Source: Bacilli bacterium
GTDB taxonomy: Bacteria; Bacillota_I; Bacilli_A; RFN20; CAG-826
Reading direction: 5' to 3'
DNA length: 64,000 bases
Assembly: GCA_024408075.1 (NCBI GenBank)
Contig: JAKSVK010000005.1
Coordinates: forward strand, 4,942-68,941
Shown: piece after piece, positions 34,545-43,309 of the stretch
How positions within the stretch are numbered: position 1 is the stretch's first letter
How the letters are laid out: each line of letters starts with the position of its first letter
The notes under the pieces: model-generated
The model's input: the letters and a program-made list of their open reading frames with translations, nothing else
What the model was told of the DNA's origin: nothing
The model's database searches: none
Translations under genes and position numbers: made by a program

Positions 34545-34575
34545 TAAAAAATAAAAAACCTTCATAGAAGGTTTA
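34545..34575 (-). terminator. Rho-independent terminator after tRNA-Leu(CAA)
   Basis: Minus-strand RNA reads AAACCUUC-UAU-GAAGGUUU followed by UUUAUUUUUU. Confidence 0.6.
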
Positions 34576-34582
34576 TTATAAA

Positions 34583-34668
34583 TGGTGCCCGAGGACGGAA
34601 TCGAACCGACATGGCTGTTAACCGGAAGATTTTGAGTCTTCTGCGTCTACCAGTTTCACCACTCGGGC
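34583..34668 (-). tRNA. tRNA-Leu (anticodon CAA), class II
   Basis: Hand-folded: GCCCGAG acceptor, anticodon arm GAAGA-CTCAAAA-TCTTC, long variable arm, T-loop TTCGATT, ACCA. Confidence 0.85.
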
Positions 34669-34732
34669 AACGAAATTTATTATATATAAAGAATAAATAA
34701 TATTAAATGTTTTTCAAAAAATAAAACGTGGA

Positions 34733-34815
34733 TGGTGTGGCCAGAGAGACTTGAACTCACATGATTGCTCACTAGCGTCTGAAACTAGCGCGTCTACCAA
34801 TTCCGCCATGACCAC
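34733..34815 (-). tRNA. tRNA-Leu (anticodon CAG), class II
   Basis: Hand-folded: GTGGTCA acceptor, anticodon arm CTAGT-TTCAGAC-GCTAG, variable arm, T-loop TTCAAGT, ACCA. The 5' end is 3 nt after the stop of the upstream CDS. Confidence 0.8.
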
Positions 34816-34818
34816 AAT

Positions 34819-36447
34819 TTATATACCACGTTTCTTGTTTTCTTCTAATTGTAGTTTCTCAAAATTTACCTTGTGATATTTAGTGTAAGGAAGTTTATCA
34901 ACAAACTCAATTTCTTTTGGAATAGCCCAACTAATTAAATTCTTTTTACATTGATCAATAATCTTTTCTTTGTCTTCGCTTGAAGCCACAACGAAAACTT
35001 TTACAGCATGAATTGTTTTTTCGTCAGGAATTTCAATAGCACAACAATTTTTAACAAAAGACAATCTAGAAATAACAGATTCAATTTCATTAGGGAAAAC
35101 CGCAACTCCTGATACTTTAATAACACGTTTTTTACGTGATACAAAGTATACGAATCCATCTTCATCGATGTATCCTACATCTCCTGTTCTTAAATAACCA
35201 TTTTCATAAACATTCTTACTACTTTCTGGATTGTTATAATAACCAATCATGCTTGTTTTGCTTTTAATTGAAATCTCGCCAATTTTATTAGGCTCAAGAA
35301 TATTTCCATCATCATCAAGAATTCTAAAAGATACTCCTTTTAAAGGATAACCAACCGATCCATATTTATGATGAGCATGAGTATTAACGGCAGAAACAGA
35401 AAGAACTTCAGTTAAACCATACCCTTCAAACAAGCGGCATTTACTCTTATGTTTCACCATCAAATTATCAAAATTTTCTTTAATAACAGATGAAAGTGAG
35501 TCGCCACCTGAAAAGCATGAACATAAATTCTTAATATATTTATTTTTAGCAAAACCATTATCACTAATTAATGTTTTATAAACAGTAGGAACAGCACAAA
35601 TACATGAGCAGACTTTTATCCTACGCATAGGTCGTGAAATTTGAGATGGTCTATATTTAGGAATCAAAACTATACCCATCCTATTAACTAATGGAGCATG
35701 CATAGACATACAAAGACCAAAACCATGGAAACTTGGAAGAATACTAATTAGTGGTTTTCCAATAAGCTCTTCTTCACTCATGCACATTATTTCAGGTGTT
35801 AATTCTGCTGTGTAATTAAATGGGGTAGATGAAAGCATAATGGTTTTAGATTCACCAGTTGTAGAAGCACTATGAAGTAAAACGCATGGTTCATTATGAG
35901 TTAAGACAATTTCCTGAGAAGGTGTCTTATTTGTTTTAAATTTTCTATAGAAATTAAATCTTGTATTAGTACTTAATGCTCTTTTTTGAGCTTTAGATGC
36001 TAAATCATAAACAGTTCTTAAAGCTTTATCAAAAAAGTATGTTTGAATATCACATAAAACAATATTTCCATCAAATTTCTTATAATCATTAATTTGTTTA
36101 TAAACTTTTCGATCAAGTAAAAATGCTACTTTACAATTAGACTCATTATAAAATTTTTGCATTCCTGCCATTGGAGTATGAGGATGCACCATGTTACAAA
36201 TTGCTCCAATTTTATTTACAGCATAAAGTAAGATGATAGTCTGTGGAATATTAGGAAGCGAAATTAAAACTGTATCACCTTTCGAAACAAAATAATCGTT
36301 TTGAAGAATAGAAGCCATACGTTCAATCTGAGCATCTAATTTTCCATAAGAAATTTTAGTAGAAAAATAATAGATAGCTGTTGCATTTGGATTGGCATCA
36401 GCTGCTCTTTTGAATGCTTGATAGAGGGTTAAATCTGTAAGTTTCAT
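34819..36447 (-). CDS. Adenylate-forming (ANL) acyl-CoA/acyl-AMP ligase
   Basis: A3-like LLHSASTTGESKTIML, GYGLTE, LRTGDVGYIDEDGF and VSRKKRVIKVSG, with a C-terminal Lys region PYTKYHKV. Confidence 0.8.
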   Translation of the reverse strand: MKLTDLTLYQAFKRAADANPNATAIYYFSTKISYGKLDAQIERMASILQNDYFVSKGDTVLISLPNIPQTIILLYAVNKIGAICNMVHPHTPMAGMQKFYNESNCKVAFLLDRKVYKQINDYKKFDGNIVLCDIQTYFFDKALRTVYDLASKAQKRALSTNTRFNFYRKFKTNKTPSQEIVLTHNEPCVLLHSASTTGESKTIMLSSTPFNYTAELTPEIMCMSEEELIGKPLISILPSFHGFGLCMSMHAPLVNRMGIVLIPKYRPSQISRPMRRIKVCSCICAVPTVYKTLISDNGFAKNKYIKNLCSCFSGGDSLSSVIKENFDNLMVKHKSKCRLFEGYGLTEVLSVSAVNTHAHHKYGSVGYPLKGVSFRILDDDGNILEPNKIGEISIKSKTSMIGYYNNPESSKNVYENGYLRTGDVGYIDEDGFVYFVSRKKRVIKVSGVAVFPNEIESVISRLSFVKNCCAIEIPDEKTIHAVKVFVVASSEDKEKIIDQCKKNLISWAIPKEIEFVDKLPYTKYHKVNFEKLQLEENKKRGI

Positions 36448-36449
36448 AT

Positions 36450-37220
36450 CTATTTAATAATAGCGCCAATTCCCATAAAAACAATTGTAAATATAATTTC
36501 GTGCGCAATATAAACAATTAAAGTATGCCTGCCAAGAAAACAAATTGGTCTTTCCCAATCTCTTTTTTTAAATAAATGTGGGGTTTTTGCAAAAAATTTC
36601 CTAGCAAAAATCGCTCCAATGAATAAAGCGATGATATAAGGAAACAGTGGCAAATAATCAGCAACATATCCATTTTTAATTGGATCAACATGACTGAATA
36701 AAATTGATTGAAAATGATTGAATTCATTTGTAACTGTTGTACGTTGAGAAAGTAGGACAAAAAAGTACATCAACATAAGTGCTCCAGTAACTAACCACAG
36801 ATTCTTGTTAGATAAATGTTGAAACACTGAATATATCAAAATTGAAAGTGAAATTACGAGAAGAATATTACAATCTATTTTAATCACTCGATTATTAAAT
36901 ATAGGGAGTAGTTGTAGAGAATAAGTGGCAATTGTAATCAATATACAAATAGCGAATAATATCGCTCCACGTTTTTTATTATTCCTTGAAAGAGTGCATG
37001 AAATTCCGCACGTAAACATAAAAGCAAATAACACCAATTGTCTCATTACCAATCTGAATGTAGATGTCCAATAACTAGATAAAAATGGCTGGGCAGAATT
37101 AAAACAATAGAAATTAATTGACCAAACAAGATGATCAATAATCACAAGTAAAATCAAAAAACCACGAAATAAGTCTAATTCATGGATTCTTTTTTCAAAT
37201 GCTTCAGATTTCTTTTTCAT
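36450..37220 (-). CDS. DUF1624/HGSNAT-like polytopic membrane acyltransferase
   Basis: RIHELDLFRGFLILLVIIDHL N-terminal motif, about 8 TM. Start trimmed to ATG 37220 (MKKKSEAF...) because the ORF-track TTG start at 37256 lies inside tRNA-Pro. Confidence 0.6.
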   Translation of the reverse strand: MKKKSEAFEKRIHELDLFRGFLILLVIIDHLVWSINFYCFNSAQPFLSSYWTSTFRLVMRQLVLFAFMFTCGISCTLSRNNKKRGAILFAICILITIATYSLQLLPIFNNRVIKIDCNILLVISLSILIYSVFQHLSNKNLWLVTGALMLMYFFVLLSQRTTVTNEFNHFQSILFSHVDPIKNGYVADYLPLFPYIIALFIGAIFARKFFAKTPHLFKKRDWERPICFLGRHTLIVYIAHEIIFTIVFMGIGAIIK

Positions 37221-37226
37221 ACTTTT

Positions 37227-37303
37227 TGGTCGGGAAGACGAGATTTGAACTCGCAACCTCCAACACCCGAAATTGGCGCGCTACCAAGTTACGCTACTTC
37301 CCG
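37227..37303 (-). tRNA. tRNA-Pro (anticodon CGG)
   Basis: Hand-folded: CGGGAAG acceptor, anticodon arm CCAAT-TTCGGGT-GTTGG with G37, T-loop TTCAAAT, ACCA. It starts 3 nt after the polC stop and ends 6 nt before the next ATG. Confidence 0.85.
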
Positions 37304-37306
37304 ATA

Positions 37307-40300
37307 TTAAAAATCAAATAATGAGAGTTGGTCATTCTCATTTAATTCGTCAAGCACGCCTAAATCAGAAAGATCTTTAACGTTGGTGCTCGTAAGTTTT
37401 GTTCGTTTTAACAAATCTTCTTTAGAAGAGAATGGTTTATTTTTTCTTTCCTCCACTACTGTAATCGCGTTGTTTTCGCCTAAACCGTCAATTGTAATAA
37501 AAGGCGGAATTAACATTTTATTTTTATGATCAATGACAAAATTCACTGCATCAGATTTATATAATGAAATATTTCCAAATTTATATCCACGCTCAACCAT
37601 TTCTAGTGCAATTTGAAGCGTCTTATATTGTTCTTCTTCTTTTGGAGAAAGCTTTGCACCACCACGTTTTTCTTGAGTTCTTAATTGTTCAAGACGATCA
37701 ACAATTGATTCATATCCTTTAATCATTGGAATAATGTCAAATTGTTTACTGCGTACTGAGAAGAAAGTAGCATAAAATTCAAGTGGATAATGTACTTTAA
37801 AATAACCAACACGGATTGCCATAGTAACATATGCAACAGCGTGTCCTTTAGGGAACAAATATTGAATTTTATTACATGAATCTATGTAGTACTGTGGAAC
37901 GTTATGAGCAGTCATAACTTCTACATATTCTTGTTTAAGTCCATTACCATGTCGAACATCTTCCATGATTGCAAATGAAATGCTGGAAGGTATCCCTTTA
38001 CCAATTAAGTAAGTCATAATATCATCACGACATCCAATAACTTCTCTTAATGTAGCAGTTTTATTATTAATCAAAGTTTCAGCGTTTCCATTCCAAACAT
38101 CCGTTCCATGAGATAGACCTGAAATAATAACTAAATCAGCGAATGTTGTTGGATGAGTTTTTTCTAAGATTCCTCTAACGAAATCAGTACCAAATTCAGG
38201 AATTGCCATTGCTCCTGTTTCTTGATGCAAATAATTACTTTCAAGTTTTAATGGTTCAGAAGAGGAGAATAATTTCAAAACTTCAGGATCATTCATTGGT
38301 ATTTCATCAATATTTTTTCCTGCTAAATCACACATCATTTTTAAAGCCATAGGATCAAGGTGTCCTAGCATATCAAGTTTTAAAATTGTGTCGTGAATGG
38401 AATGGAAATCAAAATGGGTTGTTTTCCAAGAAGAATCAATTTCATCTGCAGGCCACTGAATCGGTGTAAAATCATACACTTCATGATCTTTAGGAATAAC
38501 AACAATACCACCTGGATGTTGACCAGTAGTACGTTTTACTCCAACGCATCCAGAAGCAAGATATTCAATTTTAGCTTTCGGATATGTATTAGGATCTATG
38601 CCCATTCTTTCAAGATATCCACGAGCAAAACCAAAAGCTGTTTTTTCTGCAACAGTTTCAATTGTTCCTGCTCTAAAGACCTTATCAGCACCTAAAAGAG
38701 TTTTGGTATGCTCGTGGGCGCGAGCTTGGTAATCACGAGGGAAGTTTAAGTCAATATCAGGAACCTTCTCAGCATGGAATCCTAAGAATGTTTCAAAAGG
38801 AATATCTTGGCCATCCCTAATTAACTCTTCACCACAACATGGACACTTTTTATTTGGTAAATCAAAGCCTGATTTAATATCAGGGTATTCATCTTTGCCC
38901 CATTCAAGATGATGACATTTTGGACAAATATAATGAGGAGGTAATGGATTAACTTCAGTAATTCCTGCCATTGTAGCAGCAAAAGAAGAACCAACAGAAC
39001 CACGGGATCCAACAATATAGCCATCTTCATTAGACATTTTCACCAATTTATGAGCAATATAATAAATAACAGAATATCCGTTTGAAATAATACCGTTAAG
39101 TTCAGTATCTAAACGAGTTTGAATAAATTCAGGAAGTGGATCTCCATAAAGCTTTTTAGCGTTTGTGTAACACATTTCTCTAAGAATGTTTTCACTGTTA
39201 TCAATTTTTGGTGTGTAAAGCTTATCATTAGGAACAGGTTTAAGTGACTCAATCATGTCAGCAACTTTATTTGTGTTTGTAATAACGATTTCTTTTGCTA
39301 AATCTTCATCTAAAAATGAAAATGCATCCAACATTTCTTTTGTTGAACGATAATGTTGATCTGGGTTTTCAAAATGAGGCATCTTAGAACGAGCATAAGG
39401 GTTTAATGGGTGGTTCATCTTACCAACTTGAGGTGCAGAGATATAAATATCTCTAAATATTTTTTCACGAGGAGATAAATAATGAACATCACCTGTTGCA
39501 CACACCATTTTTCCAGCTTCTTTTGCAGCTGAAATAATGTCACAAATATTGCGTTTAACTTCATCTTCACTTAGTTCATCCATATTGACTAAAATTGAAT
39601 AGTTTTCTGGTGGTTGAACTTCGATATAATCATAAAATTTACAAGTATTTACTAACCTTTCATGATTGTAATATCTTGAGGTTTCAAAAACTTCACCATT
39701 AAGGCAAGCAGAGCCTAGTAGTAAGTTTGTTCTATATTCATTTAAAACTCTACGAGGCACAATTGGAGTTGCAGAAACATACTCAATATTAGATATAGAA
39801 ACTAATTTGTATAAATCTCTAAGTCCTTCTTTATTTTTTGCTAAAGCAACAACGTGCATTGCTCTTAAGTGAGGCAATAATTTTTTATCAATTTCAAGTT
39901 TAGCTAATTCACTATGTTTTAAAGACAAATTTTTAACAGTTAATTTACCTAAAAGAACATGCCAAACTTCTCCTAAAACGAAAGCATCGTAATCTGCTCT
40001 ATGAGCGCTTTCCTCATCATAAACAACTTCAAGGTGATTACATAATGCGCCTAATCTATGTGTTTTACTTTCAGGGAACAAATATCTACTTAATGCAAGA
40101 GTATCAACTACACCATTTTTAAGTGGTTCATAACCATTGCTAACTAATGCTTCATTTAAGAACGAACAGTCGAATTGAGCATTATGTGTAACTAAAATAG
40201 AATCACCAATAAACTCCAAAATCTTCGGCAAAACCTCATTTATTTTTGGTTTTCCTTCAAGCATCGAGTCATCAATGTTAGTTAATCTAGCAATCTTTGC

Positions 40301-41740
40301 ATCGATATGAGTTTCTGGATTTATTAATATATCAAGTCGGTCAACTTCAGTACCGCCTGAAATCTTAACAGCACCAAATTCAATGATCTTATTATATCTT
40401 GCACTTAATCCTGTAGTTTCTAAGTCGAACACTACATAAGTGGCTTTATTTAATATTGTTTCTTTAGGGTTATAAATGAATTTAATTTCATCATCAATCA
40501 TGTAAAATTCACAGCCGTAAAGCATCTTAATTCCAGTTTTCTTTTCTGCTTTTTGAGCATCAGGAAATCCTTGAACGCAGCCATGATCAGTAATAGCCAT
40601 AGCAGTATGGCCAAGAGCTTTAGCATATTGAGCATATGAAATCATTTCACTTACACCATCTTGTGTAGACATTGTTGAGTGAAGATGTAATTCTACACGA
40701 TTTTGCTCATAATCTTCTTTTTTAATTTCATCAGAAACGATGATATCAATTAAATGAATTTTAATTTGAAGAGTATGAGAAAAATCGTCAACATAAGCAA
40801 CCCCACGAACTCTTACTTCAGGTTTATCTTTTAAGCGAGAAACTAGTTCAGAATTAATGCTTGAATTTTCATAACACCAACCAACAATCGCACCACCAAA
40901 TTGATCAGCAATACCAAGTGTTAGCCTTACATAAGTTCCTCTTGCAACTTCTTCTACTTTATAAATTCTTCCATTAAAGTCAACATGGTCACTTTCTGCA
41001 GTAATATCATCAATTTTTTCAATGTAATCATATTTACCGCGTCGATTAAGACGAGCTCTTTCTCTTTCTTTGTCCATGAGCTCTTTATTTTTTCTCATTT
41101 CCTCAAGAAAACGATCTTCAACTAAATGGTTAAGTTCTTTTTGTTCTTCTTCAATTTGTTTTAAAGTGTCATTTCTATCACTAACTTCTTCAATAACGTT
41201 AGTATCAGCTATATCTTGTTGAGCAATTTCTTCAGCAGCAGCTTTAGTTTGTTCTTTTATTTTTTCATCAACAACTACTTCTTCTTTTTTCTCAACAAGA
41301 ACTGTTTCAAGAGAAATAAAATCGTAAGAAATAAATTTTAAAAATTCTTTAAAATCGATAATGACATTGTCATATCCACAAGCTTCTTCTTCGCTAGTAA
41401 AAGTTATCAAAACTGTCTCTTCATTTTTCTTTGCTATATTTAAAGAACAAATTAAATGATAAATAGATTGATACCAACCTTTAAAAAGTTCAACTACATC
41501 ATCAGAAGTTGGTTTTTTGTTATAAACAAACCTTAAAGTATAAGTGTAATTATCAATCGTATTTAATCCTTGTTGGAATCGTTCAAGTAATGGATATTCC
41601 CAAGGAGTATCTTTGACAATAATCATATCAATTTGGTTATGATTAAAACGATTTCTGCTCACTACTTCAAAATCCATATCAAAAGACTCACAATCTGTGA
41701 TTTTTATAGATTTTAAAAAGCTAAGCATTTTTTCTTTCAT
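37307..41740 (-). CDS. polC: DNA polymerase III alpha subunit, PolC type
   Basis: 1477 aa. PHP motif ELHLHSTMSTQDG, exonuclease VVFDLETTGL, zinc module CPKCHHLEW...CPCCGEEL and a polymerase core. Confidence 0.97.
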   Translation of the reverse strand: MKEKMLSFLKSIKITDCESFDMDFEVVSRNRFNHNQIDMIIVKDTPWEYPLLERFQQGLNTIDNYTYTLRFVYNKKPTSDDVVELFKGWYQSIYHLICSLNIAKKNEETVLITFTSEEEACGYDNVIIDFKEFLKFISYDFISLETVLVEKKEEVVVDEKIKEQTKAAAEEIAQQDIADTNVIEEVSDRNDTLKQIEEEQKELNHLVEDRFLEEMRKNKELMDKERERARLNRRGKYDYIEKIDDITAESDHVDFNGRIYKVEEVARGTYVRLTLGIADQFGGAIVGWCYENSSINSELVSRLKDKPEVRVRGVAYVDDFSHTLQIKIHLIDIIVSDEIKKEDYEQNRVELHLHSTMSTQDGVSEMISYAQYAKALGHTAMAITDHGCVQGFPDAQKAEKKTGIKMLYGCEFYMIDDEIKFIYNPKETILNKATYVVFDLETTGLSARYNKIIEFGAVKISGGTEVDRLDILINPETHIDAKIARLTNIDDSMLEGKPKINEVLPKILEFIGDSILVTHNAQFDCSFLNEALVSNGYEPLKNGVVDTLALSRYLFPESKTHRLGALCNHLEVVYDEESAHRADYDAFVLGEVWHVLLGKLTVKNLSLKHSELAKLEIDKKLLPHLRAMHVVALAKNKEGLRDLYKLVSISNIEYVSATPIVPRRVLNEYRTNLLLGSACLNGEVFETSRYYNHERLVNTCKFYDYIEVQPPENYSILVNMDELSEDEVKRNICDIISAAKEAGKMVCATGDVHYLSPREKIFRDIYISAPQVGKMNHPLNPYARSKMPHFENPDQHYRSTKEMLDAFSFLDEDLAKEIVITNTNKVADMIESLKPVPNDKLYTPKIDNSENILREMCYTNAKKLYGDPLPEFIQTRLDTELNGIISNGYSVIYYIAHKLVKMSNEDGYIVGSRGSVGSSFAATMAGITEVNPLPPHYICPKCHHLEWGKDEYPDIKSGFDLPNKKCPCCGEELIRDGQDIPFETFLGFHAEKVPDIDLNFPRDYQARAHEHTKTLLGADKVFRAGTIETVAEKTAFGFARGYLERMGIDPNTYPKAKIEYLASGCVGVKRTTGQHPGGIVVIPKDHEVYDFTPIQWPADEIDSSWKTTHFDFHSIHDTILKLDMLGHLDPMALKMMCDLAGKNIDEIPMNDPEVLKLFSSSEPLKLESNYLHQETGAMAIPEFGTDFVRGILEKTHPTTFADLVIISGLSHGTDVWNGNAETLINNKTATLREVIGCRDDIMTYLIGKGIPSSISFAIMEDVRHGNGLKQEYVEVMTAHNVPQYYIDSCNKIQYLFPKGHAVAYVTMAIRVGYFKVHYPLEFYATFFSVRSKQFDIIPMIKGYESIVDRLEQLRTQEKRGGAKLSPKEEEQYKTLQIALEMVERGYKFGNISLYKSDAVNFVIDHKNKMLIPPFITIDGLGENNAITVVEERKNKPFSSKEDLLKRTKLTSTNVKDLSDLGVLDELNENDQLSLFDF

Positions 41741-41743
41741 AGA

Positions 41744-43309
41744 TTAAATAAATGTGATTACATCCTTAATTACAATTAATATCATCAGCGAGAACAATAA
41801 AATAAGTCCAATCGCAGAAGCCCAAGTTTTAAATTTATTTGGAAGTTCTTTTCGAGTCACTCCTTCAATTACTGTGACAAGTAAGTGCCATCCATCTAGG
41901 CCTGGGAAAGGCAAAAGATTAACAATCGCTAAATTTACTGAAATCATTGCCCAGAAAAATAAATATTGTCCAAATCCATTTTCTTTTAATGTCTGTGTGG
42001 TTGTAACACCAATTGCAATAATTCCTCCAACATCTTTCCATGCTTCTGAGGAGCTAAATAATTTAGCAAGACCACGTCCAATCAAAGTTGCTGAATCAGC
42101 AAAATCAGTAAACGTATTTTTAAACACTTCTTTTCCACTAATTCGATATGAATCTATTCTTAAATTTAGTCCCAAATCTATAGGTAAATAAGTACGTGTT
42201 CCAATTTGTGTAACTTCAATATCTTGAAAGAAAATTTTCTTACTTGGGCTTTCATCATTTTCACTTTTTTCAACAAAAAAGCTGACTTTTGTAGGGAAAT
42301 TTTCTTTATCTTGACTAATAAAGTAATTCTTACTGATGTCAATCGAAGAGAACTTAAATTGATCTTCTTCACCCTCTAAATACAAGATGTTATTGTCCTT
42401 TTTGATTTCGCCAACAACTTCAAAAGTTTGATATTTAGGAATGCAGTAATTTGACCCACCTTTAATTGGAAGTCTAAGCTGTAAAATGTTGTTTGCATTT
42501 CCACGATAATCTTGTCCAATACTAAATATTAAAGTACCACTTTGATTTTCGTTGATTGTGATAGAAGTTAAAGAATATCCTCTAACTTTGTATTGAACAC
42601 CTTCTTCATATTCACCATTAACAATTTCTTCAATTGTCTTTTCTGGTGCAATCAAAATTGATTCTTCATTTACATTAATTTTTTCATATCCAACAACACG
42701 TGTACTTACGGCAGTGTCTGATAAGGTAATTGAAGAATAATCGGCCCCAAAAAAGATTGTTTTATTTAAAGACGAATCTTCATATTCAAGAAGAGCTTCA
42801 TTATCATATAAAACTAATGAACTAGCATTAGTTGAATAATACATTGAAAATAATGTATCACCATTTTTAAGACCAAGATTTGAAGCAATTGAATTAGGAG
42901 TAACATTCACTTGATATGTATATATAACATTTTTAGGAAAAGCTGCTTCATAAATGAAGAACATTACAATTGCTAAAATCATGTTCATAATAACACCAGC
43001 GGACATAATAATTGCTTTTTTCCACTTCTTAGTGTTATTAAGTGACCTTGAAGGATCTACATTCACCCCTTCAGGAACGGTGTCATCTTCTCCATACATT
43101 GAAACAAATCCACCAAATGGAATTGCTCTTATAGAGAAAGCAGTTTCTCCGCCTTTTCTTTTTCTAGAAAATAATTTTGGTCCAAATCCAATTGAATATT
43201 CAAAACAATAGACTTTAAACATTTTGGCAGTCATTAAATGGCCTAATTCGTGAATCATAATTAATAGGCCAAGAAAAACAATAAATAATAATATATAAAC
43301 AACTATCAT
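41744..43309 (-). CDS. rseP: RIP site-2 metalloprotease RseP/RasP family (enlarged ectodomain)
   Basis: HELGHL zinc motif near the N-terminus, a PDZ-like NLGLKNGDTLFSM, and C-terminal NLLPFPGLDG. The length is 521 aa. Confidence 0.85.
   Translation of the reverse strand: MIVVYILLFIVFLGLLIMIHELGHLMTAKMFKVYCFEYSIGFGPKLFSRKRKGGETAFSIRAIPFGGFVSMYGEDDTVPEGVNVDPSRSLNNTKKWKKAIIMSAGVIMNMILAIVMFFIYEAAFPKNVIYTYQVNVTPNSIASNLGLKNGDTLFSMYYSTNASSLVLYDNEALLEYEDSSLNKTIFFGADYSSITLSDTAVSTRVVGYEKINVNEESILIAPEKTIEEIVNGEYEEGVQYKVRGYSLTSITINENQSGTLIFSIGQDYRGNANNILQLRLPIKGGSNYCIPKYQTFEVVGEIKKDNNILYLEGEEDQFKFSSIDISKNYFISQDKENFPTKVSFFVEKSENDESPSKKIFFQDIEVTQIGTRTYLPIDLGLNLRIDSYRISGKEVFKNTFTDFADSATLIGRGLAKLFSSSEAWKDVGGIIAIGVTTTQTLKENGFGQYLFFWAMISVNLAIVNLLPFPGLDGWHLLVTVIEGVTRKELPNKFKTWASAIGLILLFSLMILIVIKDVITFI

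What the first reader, a model, noticed from the sequence alone, without database searches (positions are those of the whole stretch)
34733..37309. tRNA-punctuated cassette: polC, 3 nt, tRNA-Pro, 6 nt, two CDSs, 3 nt, tRNA-Leu, with no room for promoters or terminators
The polC stop (37307-37309) is 3 nt from the tRNA-Pro(CGG) 5' end (37303). The tRNA 3' CCA (37227) is 6 nt from the ATG of the DUF1624 gene (37220). The DUF1624 and ANL-ligase genes are 2 nt apart. The ligase stop (34819-34821) is 3 nt from the tRNA-Leu(CAG) 5' end (34815). The first clear terminator comes only after the next tRNA-Leu(CAA), at 34545-34575. The simplest reading is one long transcript from the polC operon, which RNase P and 3' processing cut into mRNAs and tRNAs. 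The DUF1624 mRNA would then start about 6 nt before its ATG and have no Shine-Dalgarno sequence, so the tRNA excision would create a leaderless mRNA. This resembles mitochondrial tRNA punctuation and is unusual for bacterial protein-coding genes.
Basis: seen in the sequence. Interest (0 to 1): 0.58.

Follow-up and report, generated by a model that had tools for sequence, protein, structure and literature searches.

The report
tRNA-punctuated tail of the polC operon
In this small-genome rumen bacterium two rare-codon tRNA genes are wedged, with gaps of only 3-6 bases, between polC and a two-gene acylation cassette, so all are almost certainly made as one RNA and cut apart at the tRNAs; that would leave the first cassette gene with a near-leaderless message, an arrangement kept throughout the genus but not yet shown by RNA data.

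Summary

It is not chance. In 17 genus species with both junctions readable, the gaps are 2-14 nt (polC to tRNA), 6-14 nt (tRNA to ATG; 30 in one) and 3-23 nt (ligase to tRNA-Leu). None has an SD before the acyltransferase; about half have one before the ligase.

Co-transcription from upstream is well supported by comparison:
- There is no promoter space and no conserved promoter hidden in the polC 3' end.
- Two congeners end the unit with a terminator straight after tRNA-Pro.

Release of a near-leaderless mRNA is plausible but inferred:
- About 9% of this genome's genes carry a -10 box placed for transcription to start at or within a base of the ATG.
- Homologues in sister genera have such promoters.
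- 16 of 17 genus members do not.

One correction: the unit probably ends just after tRNA-Leu(CAG), not after tRNA-Leu(CAA).

No RNA data were available. This scan has noted similar tRNA-abutted genes on other DNA (CPR bacteria, WOR-3, a phage, an archaeon). I rate it a new variant of a known kind, of moderate interest.

The parts
41744..43309 (-). rseP-type M50 site-2 protease. It is 3 nt upstream of polC, its ATG overlaps the upstream ORF's stop (TAATG), and it is part of a long co-directional gene string.
   Evidence: Pfam Peptidase_M50, 2.2e-54; ORF map and junction sequence.
37307..41740 (-). polC (DNA polymerase III alpha, Gram-positive type), with TAA stop at 37307-37309.
   Evidence: Pfam DNA_pol3_alpha, RNase_T, PHP, finger and HHH_6 domains; sequence.
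37304..37306 (-). 3-nt spacer TAT between the polC stop and the tRNA-Pro 5' end; the inferred RNase P cut lies at its 3' edge.
   Evidence: Sequence. The same gap is 2-14 nt in the 23 family genomes compared.
37227..37303 (-). tRNA-Pro(CGG) with encoded CCA. It is a functional tRNA that reads one of the rarest codons in the genome.
   Evidence: ARAGORN; Rfam 59.6 bits; many compensatory changes in the anticodon, T and acceptor stems across 24 relatives; CCG is 3.4% of Pro codons.
37221..37226 (-). 6-nt spacer AAAAGT with no SD and no -10 box; the inferred site of the 3' endonucleolytic cut that frees the mRNA.
   Evidence: Sequence; comparison of 17 species.
36450..37220 (-). DUF1624/HGSNAT_cat membrane acyltransferase, 256 aa, ATG start.
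   Evidence: Pfam PF07786, 6.1e-29, residues 11-241; alignment A1 with 76% mean column identity.
34819..36447 (-). AMP-binding (ANL) ligase, 542 aa. Its ATG lies 2 nt after the upstream TAG, so translation is probably coupled.
   Evidence: Pfam AMP-binding 1.6e-57 and AMP-binding_C; sequence. Congeners with longer gaps carry GGAGG-type SDs here.
34816..34818 (-). 3-nt spacer ATT between the ligase stop and the tRNA-Leu(CAG) 5' end.
   Evidence: Sequence; 3-23 nt in congeners.
34733..34815 (-). tRNA-Leu(CAG) with encoded CCA; CUG is 0.9% of Leu codons.
   Evidence: ARAGORN; Rfam 49.6 bits; codon counts.
34715..34732 (-). 3' flank UCCACGUUU followed by a U-run. It pairs with GAAACGUGG at 34826-34834 in the ligase 3' end, so this is a possible terminator with the tRNA as its loop.
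   Evidence: MFE and centroid folds. Most congeners have a discrete hairpin plus T-run at this position.
34679..34706 (-). Promoter-like TTAATA-16-TATAAT ending about 10 nt before tRNA-Leu(CAA).
   Evidence: Consensus scan, 10 of 12 matches. The scan's total of sites is at chance level, so this is only a lead.
34583..34668 (-). tRNA-Leu(CAA), probably a separate unit, followed by a hairpin terminator at 34556-34574.

Best explanation
The cassette is the tail of the long co-directional ...dxr-like ORF, rseP, polC gene string. None of the four junctions has a promoter or terminator. RNA polymerase therefore reads from polC through tRNA-Pro(CGG), the acyltransferase, the ligase and tRNA-Leu(CAG), and probably stops at the U-run just behind that tRNA.

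RNase P (type B RNA present) cuts at each tRNA 5' end. This separates the polC mRNA from tRNA-Pro and the cassette mRNA from tRNA-Leu.

All 39 tRNA genes encode CCA and no RNase Z was found. The 3' side of tRNA-Pro must therefore be opened by another endonuclease in the A/U-rich 6-nt spacer (RNase Y or RNase J, both present), after which PNPase trims back to CCA.

The downstream product is a bicistronic acyltransferase-ligase mRNA with a 5'-monophosphate and a leader of at most 6 nt. It would be translated by the SD-independent, leaderless-type route that this organism uses for roughly a tenth of its genes. The ligase would follow by termination-reinitiation across the 2-nt gap.

The two tRNAs read the rarest Pro and Leu codons, so riding on a low-level housekeeping transcript matches their low demand.

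Shown: the anatomy, its conservation, the enzyme inventory and the leaderless-promoter signature. Inferred: transcript continuity, the cut sites and the mode of initiation.
For: The anatomy is exact.

Conservation:
- polC stop to tRNA-Pro(CGG) is 2-14 nt in all 22 genus genomes with a polC match (one more had none) and in the sister genus compared, but not in other families of the order.
- tRNA to ATG is 6-14 nt (30 in one) and never has an SD in 17 species, while the next gene has GGAGG-type SDs in about half of them.
- Ligase to tRNA-Leu(CAG) is 3-23 nt, mostly followed by a terminator.
- G003 and G015 end the unit with a terminator directly after tRNA-Pro. The tRNA therefore belongs to the polC unit.

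No promoter:
- Synonymous sites are not unusually conserved in the last 45 polC codons.
- Promoter-like hits in the region are at or below shuffle expectation, 45 against 53.
- Only 1 of 17 species has a -10 box placed for a start at the ATG.

Leaderless competence:
- Among 289 genes without an SD, a -10-like hexamer ends exactly 7 nt before the A of the ATG in 35. Flanking positions mostly have 6-14, and genes with an SD have 0.
- 50 genes qualify at -6 to -8, and 16 of them have an extended TG.
- Homologues in other genera carry TATTAT, TATAAT or TATAGT 7-8 nt before the start.

Machinery:
- RNase P RNA type B scores 263.6 bits.
- RNase Y, RNase J1/J2 and PNPase are present.
- RNase Z, RNase R and stand-alone RNase PH were not found.
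- All tRNA genes encode CCA.

Further points:
- The start region is unpaired in the fold.
- Precedents exist: RNase P separates secG mRNA from leuU tRNA in E. coli (PMC2241853). RNase E cuts directly after CCA of the E. coli proline tRNAs (PMC5291269). In S. pneumoniae 9% of operons are leaderless and efficiently translated (PMC6212727).
Against: - There is no RNA evidence of any kind: no RNA run holds the stretch, and the runs laid are kept only as contigs, which cannot show transcript ends or continuity.
- A 6-14 nt leader is not strictly leaderless. By general knowledge from E. coli, extra 5' nucleotides lower leaderless initiation.
- In G015 the cassette sits elsewhere, without tRNA-Pro or polC upstream, and still has no SD or obvious -10. 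The gene can therefore be expressed without a tRNA in front.
- About half of this genome's genes lack an SD anyway.
- The synonymous-site test is weak against a promoter lying further upstream in polC.
- The nuclease that would cut in a 6-nt spacer is unidentified.
Confidence: 0.6

Rival explanations
1. The tRNA-mRNA chimera is the working message. RNase P cuts at the tRNA 5' end, but tRNA-Pro often stays attached to the acyltransferase mRNA. There its folded body, with the paired 5' end, shields the message from RNase J1, and ribosomes initiate internally 6 nt behind it. On this reading, maturing the tRNA and making a functional mRNA compete for each transcript.
For: No RNase Z was found, and CCA-encoded tRNAs normally need a downstream cut. 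In a 6-nt spacer that cut has little room. RNase J1/J2 are present. By general knowledge, 5'-terminal structures stabilise mRNAs in Bacillus. The AUG region itself is unpaired.
Against: By general knowledge of mRNA path length, a folded tRNA beginning 7 nt before the AUG would clash with the 30S platform. There is no SD to anchor the subunit, and no multi-domain S1 protein was found. The tRNA shows covariation typical of a working tRNA that must be released.
Confidence: 0.17
2. An unrecognised promoter embedded in the polC coding region (or in the tRNA) drives tRNA-Pro and the cassette as a primary transcript, independently of polC expression.
For: AT-rich coding DNA offers many weak -10-like sites. 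Internal promoters in long operons are common (general knowledge). One species, G005, has TATTAT placed for a start at the ATG.
Against: Synonymous sites are not unusually conserved in the last 45 codons of polC. Promoter-like sites are not enriched. Positions -12 to -7 before the ATG read CGACCA in the window. 16 of 17 species lack a -10 placed for a start at the ATG. The T-loop TTCAAA with a 17-nt spacer would put the start site beyond the ATG in most species (own reading).
Confidence: 0.15
3. The tightness is only a by-product of genome streamlining of a variable insertion slot between tRNA-Pro(CGG) and tRNA-Leu(CAG). The cassette is expressed at whatever low level read-through allows, and no particular processing or initiation mode has been selected.
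For: The cargo between the two tRNAs differs between lineages. L057 has the acyltransferase alone, with its own terminator and promoter. L058 and L060 have extra ORFs. G004 has another gene, and G003 and G015 have nothing. The genome is 1.04 Mb.
Against: This is compatible with the best explanation rather than opposed to it. The cassette proteins are under clear purifying selection. The SD-free short spacer persists across 17 diverged species while the neighbouring junction gains SDs.
Confidence: 0.08

Closest known systems
E. coli mixed mRNA-tRNA operons: secG-leuU, the tufB operon (thrU-tyrU-glyT-thrT-tufB) and metY-nusA-infB
   Same: A tRNA and protein-coding genes share one transcription unit with no promoter or terminator between them. 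For secG-leuU, RNase P separates the mRNA from the tRNA (PMC2241853). The other two operons I cite from my own knowledge.
   Different: In E. coli the CDS that follows a tRNA has a normal leader with an SD (own knowledge, not checked here). Here the ATG is 6 nt from the CCA with no SD, tRNAs sit on both sides of the cassette, and the organism is a small-genome Bacilli lineage with RNase Y/J instead of RNase E.
Mitochondrial tRNA punctuation (Ojala, Montoya and Attardi 1981; own knowledge, listed among the references of PMC4633059)
   Same: tRNAs abut coding regions in a polycistronic precursor. Excising them would define the mRNA ends and leave an mRNA with little or no leader, translated without an SD.
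   Different: Only a few junctions in this genome are of this kind. No RNase Z was found and CCA is encoded. Stop codons are complete. A 6-14 nt leader remains. Most genes have their own promoters.
Promoter-generated leaderless mRNAs in Bacilli, e.g. Streptococcus pneumoniae D39 (9% of operons; PMC6212727)
   Same: The same genome shows the matching signature, a -10 box 6 nt before the ATG in 35-50 genes, and homologues of this very gene in sister genera have it.
   Different: In the window, and in 16 of 17 congeners, no -10 box is in place. The short 5' end would have to come from RNA processing, not from transcription initiation.
Earlier notes of this scan on tRNA-abutted genes (Levybacteria, Parcubacteria, WOR-3, a large phage, an archaeon)
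   Same: Genes start a few bases behind a co-directional tRNA without an SD, and are read as leaderless mRNAs made by processing. One first-reader note describes polC-tRNA-Pro-permease-tRNA-Arg in another genome.
   Different: Those are AI notes on other DNA and I did not check them. This case is in Bacilli, has tRNAs on both flanks of a defined two-gene cassette, and has a sister-genus comparison showing a promoter-driven leaderless state.

Membership tests
Bacterial mixed tRNA-mRNA operon (secG-leuU type) | tRNA and CDS are co-directional, with no room for a promoter or terminator between them. | tested here: met
   The gaps are 3, 6, 2 and 3 nt. They are tight in 17 or more species.
Bacterial mixed tRNA-mRNA operon (secG-leuU type) | A single transcript spans the CDS and the tRNA. 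| not testable with these tools
   No RNA run holds the stretch. The runs laid are kept as contigs, which cannot show transcripts.
Bacterial mixed tRNA-mRNA operon (secG-leuU type) | RNase P is available to separate the mRNA from the tRNA. | tested here: met
   RNase P RNA type B scores 263.6 bits, above the gathering score. Cleavage itself was not shown.
Mitochondrial-type tRNA punctuation | tRNAs directly flank the coding regions on both sides. | tested here: met
   tRNA-Pro lies 6 nt before the cassette and tRNA-Leu 3 nt after it.
Mitochondrial-type tRNA punctuation | RNase Z makes the cut at the tRNA 3' end. | tested here: not met
   TIGR02651 finds no match above its cut-off. The best hit (38 bits) is an RNase J paralogue. 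The assembly is 94.5% complete. All 39 tRNA genes encode CCA.
Mitochondrial-type tRNA punctuation | Punctuation is the general, genome-wide way of making mRNA ends. | tested here: not met
   Only one of 39 tRNAs has a CDS start within 14 nt downstream. Four have a CDS stop within 5 nt upstream.
Leaderless mRNA | The 5' UTR is too short for an SD, no SD is present, and the start codon is AUG. | tested here: inconclusive
   The spacer is at most 6 nt, there is no SD, and the start is ATG in all 17 species. The real 5' end is unknown.
Leaderless mRNA | The organism translates leaderless mRNAs. | tested here: met
   The evidence is indirect: a sharp -10 peak ending 7 nt before the ATG in 35 SD-less genes, against 0 in SD genes.
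Leaderless mRNA | The 5' end is made by transcription initiation at the start codon. | tested here: not met
   Positions -12 to -7 read CGACCA. 16 of 17 species lack a suitably placed -10 box.

The most novel reading that the evidence does not exclude
In this Bacilli genus, excision of tRNA-Pro(CGG) is the obligatory step that creates the translatable, near-leaderless 5' end of the acyltransferase-ligase mRNA. A promoter-made leaderless gene, the state seen in sister genera, would then have been converted into a processing-made one. That would be a bacterial counterpart of mitochondrial tRNA punctuation that works without RNase Z. It would also tie the output of a membrane acylation cassette to polC-operon transcription and to tRNA processing. 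The nearly dispensable rare-codon tRNA may be kept partly as the processing signal.
Probability: 0.3. Interest if true: 0.65.

Novelty: new variant of a known kind. Interest (0 to 1): 0.45.

Why it matters
If confirmed, this would be a clean bacterial example in which tRNA processing, not a promoter, makes the 5' end of a translated mRNA. It comes with a natural before-and-after comparison, because sister genera make the same gene's leaderless mRNA from a promoter. It would also raise the question of which nuclease cuts behind CCA-encoded tRNAs in Firmicutes-like bacteria that lack RNase Z, RNase PH and RNase R. It further suggests a general rule for streamlined genomes: minor isoacceptors, here mostly with C at the first anticodon position, lose their own promoters and ride on housekeeping mRNAs. 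For annotation, it warns that genes abutting tRNAs are real and that their starts should not be moved in search of an SD.

Tried and rejected
- RNA evidence: no RNA holder was listed for the stretch. Laying four runs gave only contigs of runs not recorded as RNA, from near-identical strains, which say nothing about transcripts.
- The first scan of genome contigs with the single protein found nothing. The scan with the alignment worked.
- An upstream in-frame TTG start at 37256 inside the tRNA is rejected, because the spacer lengths are not in frame between species.
- The GGAGG inside the window's tRNA-Pro as a distant SD is rejected. It lies 37 nt from the ATG and is not conserved in congeners.
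- A promoter using the T-loop TTCAAA as -35 and the spacer as -10 is rejected. It would place the start beyond the ATG in most species (own reading).
- A leaderless-type -10 before the ATG is absent in 16 of 17 species.
- A conserved promoter embedded in the polC 3' end shows no synonymous-site signal. This is a weak test.
- The A/U pairing of the tRNA-Pro flanks (UUUUUA with AAAAAG) is not conserved and I treat it as chance.
The library is incomplete, so this is not proof of absence.


Full report
**What is there.** All features lie on the minus strand.
- polC (37307-41740) has the Pfam domains DNA_pol3_alpha, RNase_T, PHP, finger and HHH_6, and ends with TAA.
- Three bases (TAT) follow, then tRNA-Pro(CGG) at 37227-37303 with encoded CCA.
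- Six bases (AAAAGT) follow, then the ATG of a 256-aa HGSNAT_cat/DUF1624 membrane acyltransferase (36450-37220).
- Two bases follow, then a 542-aa AMP-binding ligase (34819-36447).
- Three bases (ATT) follow, then tRNA-Leu(CAG) at 34733-34815.

Every coordinate in the finding is correct. The ATG at 37220 is the true start. The Pfam match begins at residue 11 and invariant residues begin at F8. The only upstream in-frame start lies inside the tRNA, in a frame that is not kept between species. Upstream, rseP lies 3 nt before polC, and its ATG overlaps the stop of the next ORF (TAATG). That ORF heads a long string of co-directional ORFs.

**The organism.** The window belongs to a 1.04-Mb, 31% GC assembly of 52 contigs, 94.5% complete, using the standard genetic code. 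Relatives are uncultured rumen and gut MAGs. Their records are titled Bacilli bacterium, uncultured Erysipelotrichaceae or Bacillales bacterium.

**Conservation.** The acyltransferase was found in 17 of 22 other species of the genus. Two more show its start at contig ends.
- In 17 species where the junctions can be read (the window's genome among them), polC stop to tRNA-Pro(CGG) is 2-14 nt.
- tRNA CCA to ATG is 6, 6, 6, 6, 6, 8, 8, 9, 9, 10, 10, 12, 12, 14, 14, 14 and 30 nt, and none of these spacers has an SD.
- The ligase junction carries GGAGG, AGGAG or GAGG motifs in about half of the species and is otherwise within a few nt of the upstream stop.
- Ligase stop to tRNA-Leu(CAG) is 3-23 nt. 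In most species a classical hairpin with a T-run follows that tRNA.

polC followed by tRNA-Pro(CGG) is present in all 22 genus genomes with a polC match (one more genome had none) and in the sister genus compared (G024). It is also present in three more distant loci. It is absent from the other families of the order, where polC is followed by a terminator, another gene, or a tRNA-Ala with its own promoter.

In G003 and G015 a terminator follows tRNA-Pro directly, so the tRNA is the last gene of the polC unit there. The cargo between the two tRNAs differs between lineages. The genus therefore seems to have compacted a variable slot.

tRNA-Pro shows many compensatory changes in three stems, so it is a working tRNA.

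**Is there a hidden promoter?**
- Promoter-like sites across 33-44 kb are no more frequent than in shuffles: 45 found against a mean of 53.
- Codon-level synonymous variation in the last 45 polC codons is at or above the gene's mean, at 0.96-1.42 bits against 0.94. No conserved embedded element is visible there. This test is weak for more distant sites.
- Positions -12 to -7 before the ATG read CGACCA.
- Only one congener (G005) has a -10 box placed for a start at the ATG.

Read-through from upstream is therefore the simplest source of these RNAs.

**Can such an mRNA be translated?**
- The 16S rRNA has the CCUCC tail.
- Only about 46% of 539 ORFs with unambiguous starts have a 4-mer SD, against 8% background.
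- Among the 289 without an SD, a -10-like hexamer ends exactly 7 nt before the A of the ATG in 35 genes. Neighbouring positions mostly have 6-14, and none of the SD genes has one there.
- 50 genes qualify at -6 to -8, and 16 of those have an extended TG.

This is the signature of transcription starting on the start codon, at a frequency like the 9% measured in S. pneumoniae (PMC6212727). No multi-domain S1 protein was found.

Homologues of the acyltransferase in other genera sit behind such promoters:
- L057 has a terminator after tRNA-Pro, then TATTAT, 7 nt and ATG.
- G024 has TATAAT, 8 nt and ATG.
- L058 has TATAGT, 7 nt and GTG.

The gene thus looks leaderless by promoter in relatives. In this genus it keeps the SD-free short 5' side but has a tRNA where the promoter was.

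**Processing machinery.**
- Present: RNase P RNA type B, RNase Y, RNase J1 and J2, PNPase and a CCA-adding-type nucleotidyltransferase domain.
- Not found: RNase Z, RNase R and stand-alone RNase PH.
- All 39 tRNA genes encode CCA.

The 3' cut therefore cannot be the mitochondrial RNase Z step. A cut by RNase Y or J in the A/U spacer followed by PNPase trimming is the inferred route. It is analogous to RNase E cutting right behind CCA of the E. coli proline tRNAs (PMC5291269). RNase P separating an mRNA from a downstream tRNA is documented for secG-leuU (PMC2241853).

**Where the unit ends.** In the window the ligase's last codons (GAAACGUGG) pair with UCCACGUUU directly behind the tRNA-Leu(CAG) CCA, and a U-run follows. 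Together with the terminators at this place in congeners, this suggests termination here. A 10/12 promoter-like site before tRNA-Leu(CAA) points the same way.

**A genome-wide habit.** Other singleton tRNAs, most of them with C at the first anticodon position, also sit just behind co-directional ORF stops:
- Gln(CTG) at 4 nt
- Arg(TCG) at 5 nt
- Arg(CCT) at 12 nt
- Ala(CGC) at 18 nt
- Glu(CTC) at 21 nt

CCG is 3.4% of Pro codons and CUG 0.9% of Leu codons. Low-demand tRNAs riding on mRNA operons is a coherent reading.

**Limits.** No RNA data could be brought to bear. G015 shows that the cassette can live without the tRNA in front and still lacks an SD. A 6-14 nt leader is not a 5'-terminal AUG. 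My confidence is about 0.75 for co-transcription and about 0.5 for processing-made near-leaderless translation.

**Earlier notes.** This scan has noted comparable tRNA-abutted genes on other DNA. I did not check those notes.

Noticed in passing
window 34715-34732 with 34826-34834: The flanks of tRNA-Leu(CAG) form a 9-bp helix (GAAACGUGG with UCCACGUUU) that is followed by a U-run. This looks like an intrinsic terminator whose loop is a whole tRNA. Congeners have ordinary hairpin terminators at this place instead.
   Followed up: partly
G000:C12:20131-20207 (L095:1832-1908, minus strand): This is a second punctuated junction: gatB, a GalE-like epimerase, 12 nt, tRNA-Arg(CCU), 25 nt of A/T without an SD, then an MBOAT (DltB-like) membrane O-acyltransferase. 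A membrane acyltransferase again follows a rare-codon tRNA.
   Followed up: partly
whole genome G000: There is a strong leaderless-promoter signature. 35-50 genes have a -10 hexamer ending 6-8 nt before the ATG, and only about 46% of genes have an SD.
   Followed up: yes
whole genome G000: RNase Z, RNase R and stand-alone RNase PH were not found, while all 39 tRNA genes encode CCA. PNPase, RNase Y and RNase J1/J2 are present. The tRNA 3' maturation route in this lineage is open.
   Followed up: partly
L057, L058, L060, G003, G004, G015 loci: The interval between tRNA-Pro(CGG) and tRNA-Leu(CAG) holds different cargo in different lineages: nothing, the acyltransferase alone, or extra ORFs. In G015 the cassette with tRNA-Leu(CAG) has moved to another contig. 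No integrase was seen in the stretches read.
   Followed up: partly
G000:C19:2954-3030 and G000:C23:52661-52736: tRNA-Arg(TCG) lies 5 nt after a Na+/H+ exchanger gene and 41 nt, with GGAGG, before a rubrerythrin gene. tRNA-Gln(CTG) lies 4 nt after a choline-kinase/NifU fusion ORF.
   Followed up: partly
window 37222: One low-depth contig of another sample carries an extra T in the 6-nt tRNA-to-ATG spacer. This may be strain-level length variation (depth 2.3, possibly an error).
   Followed up: no
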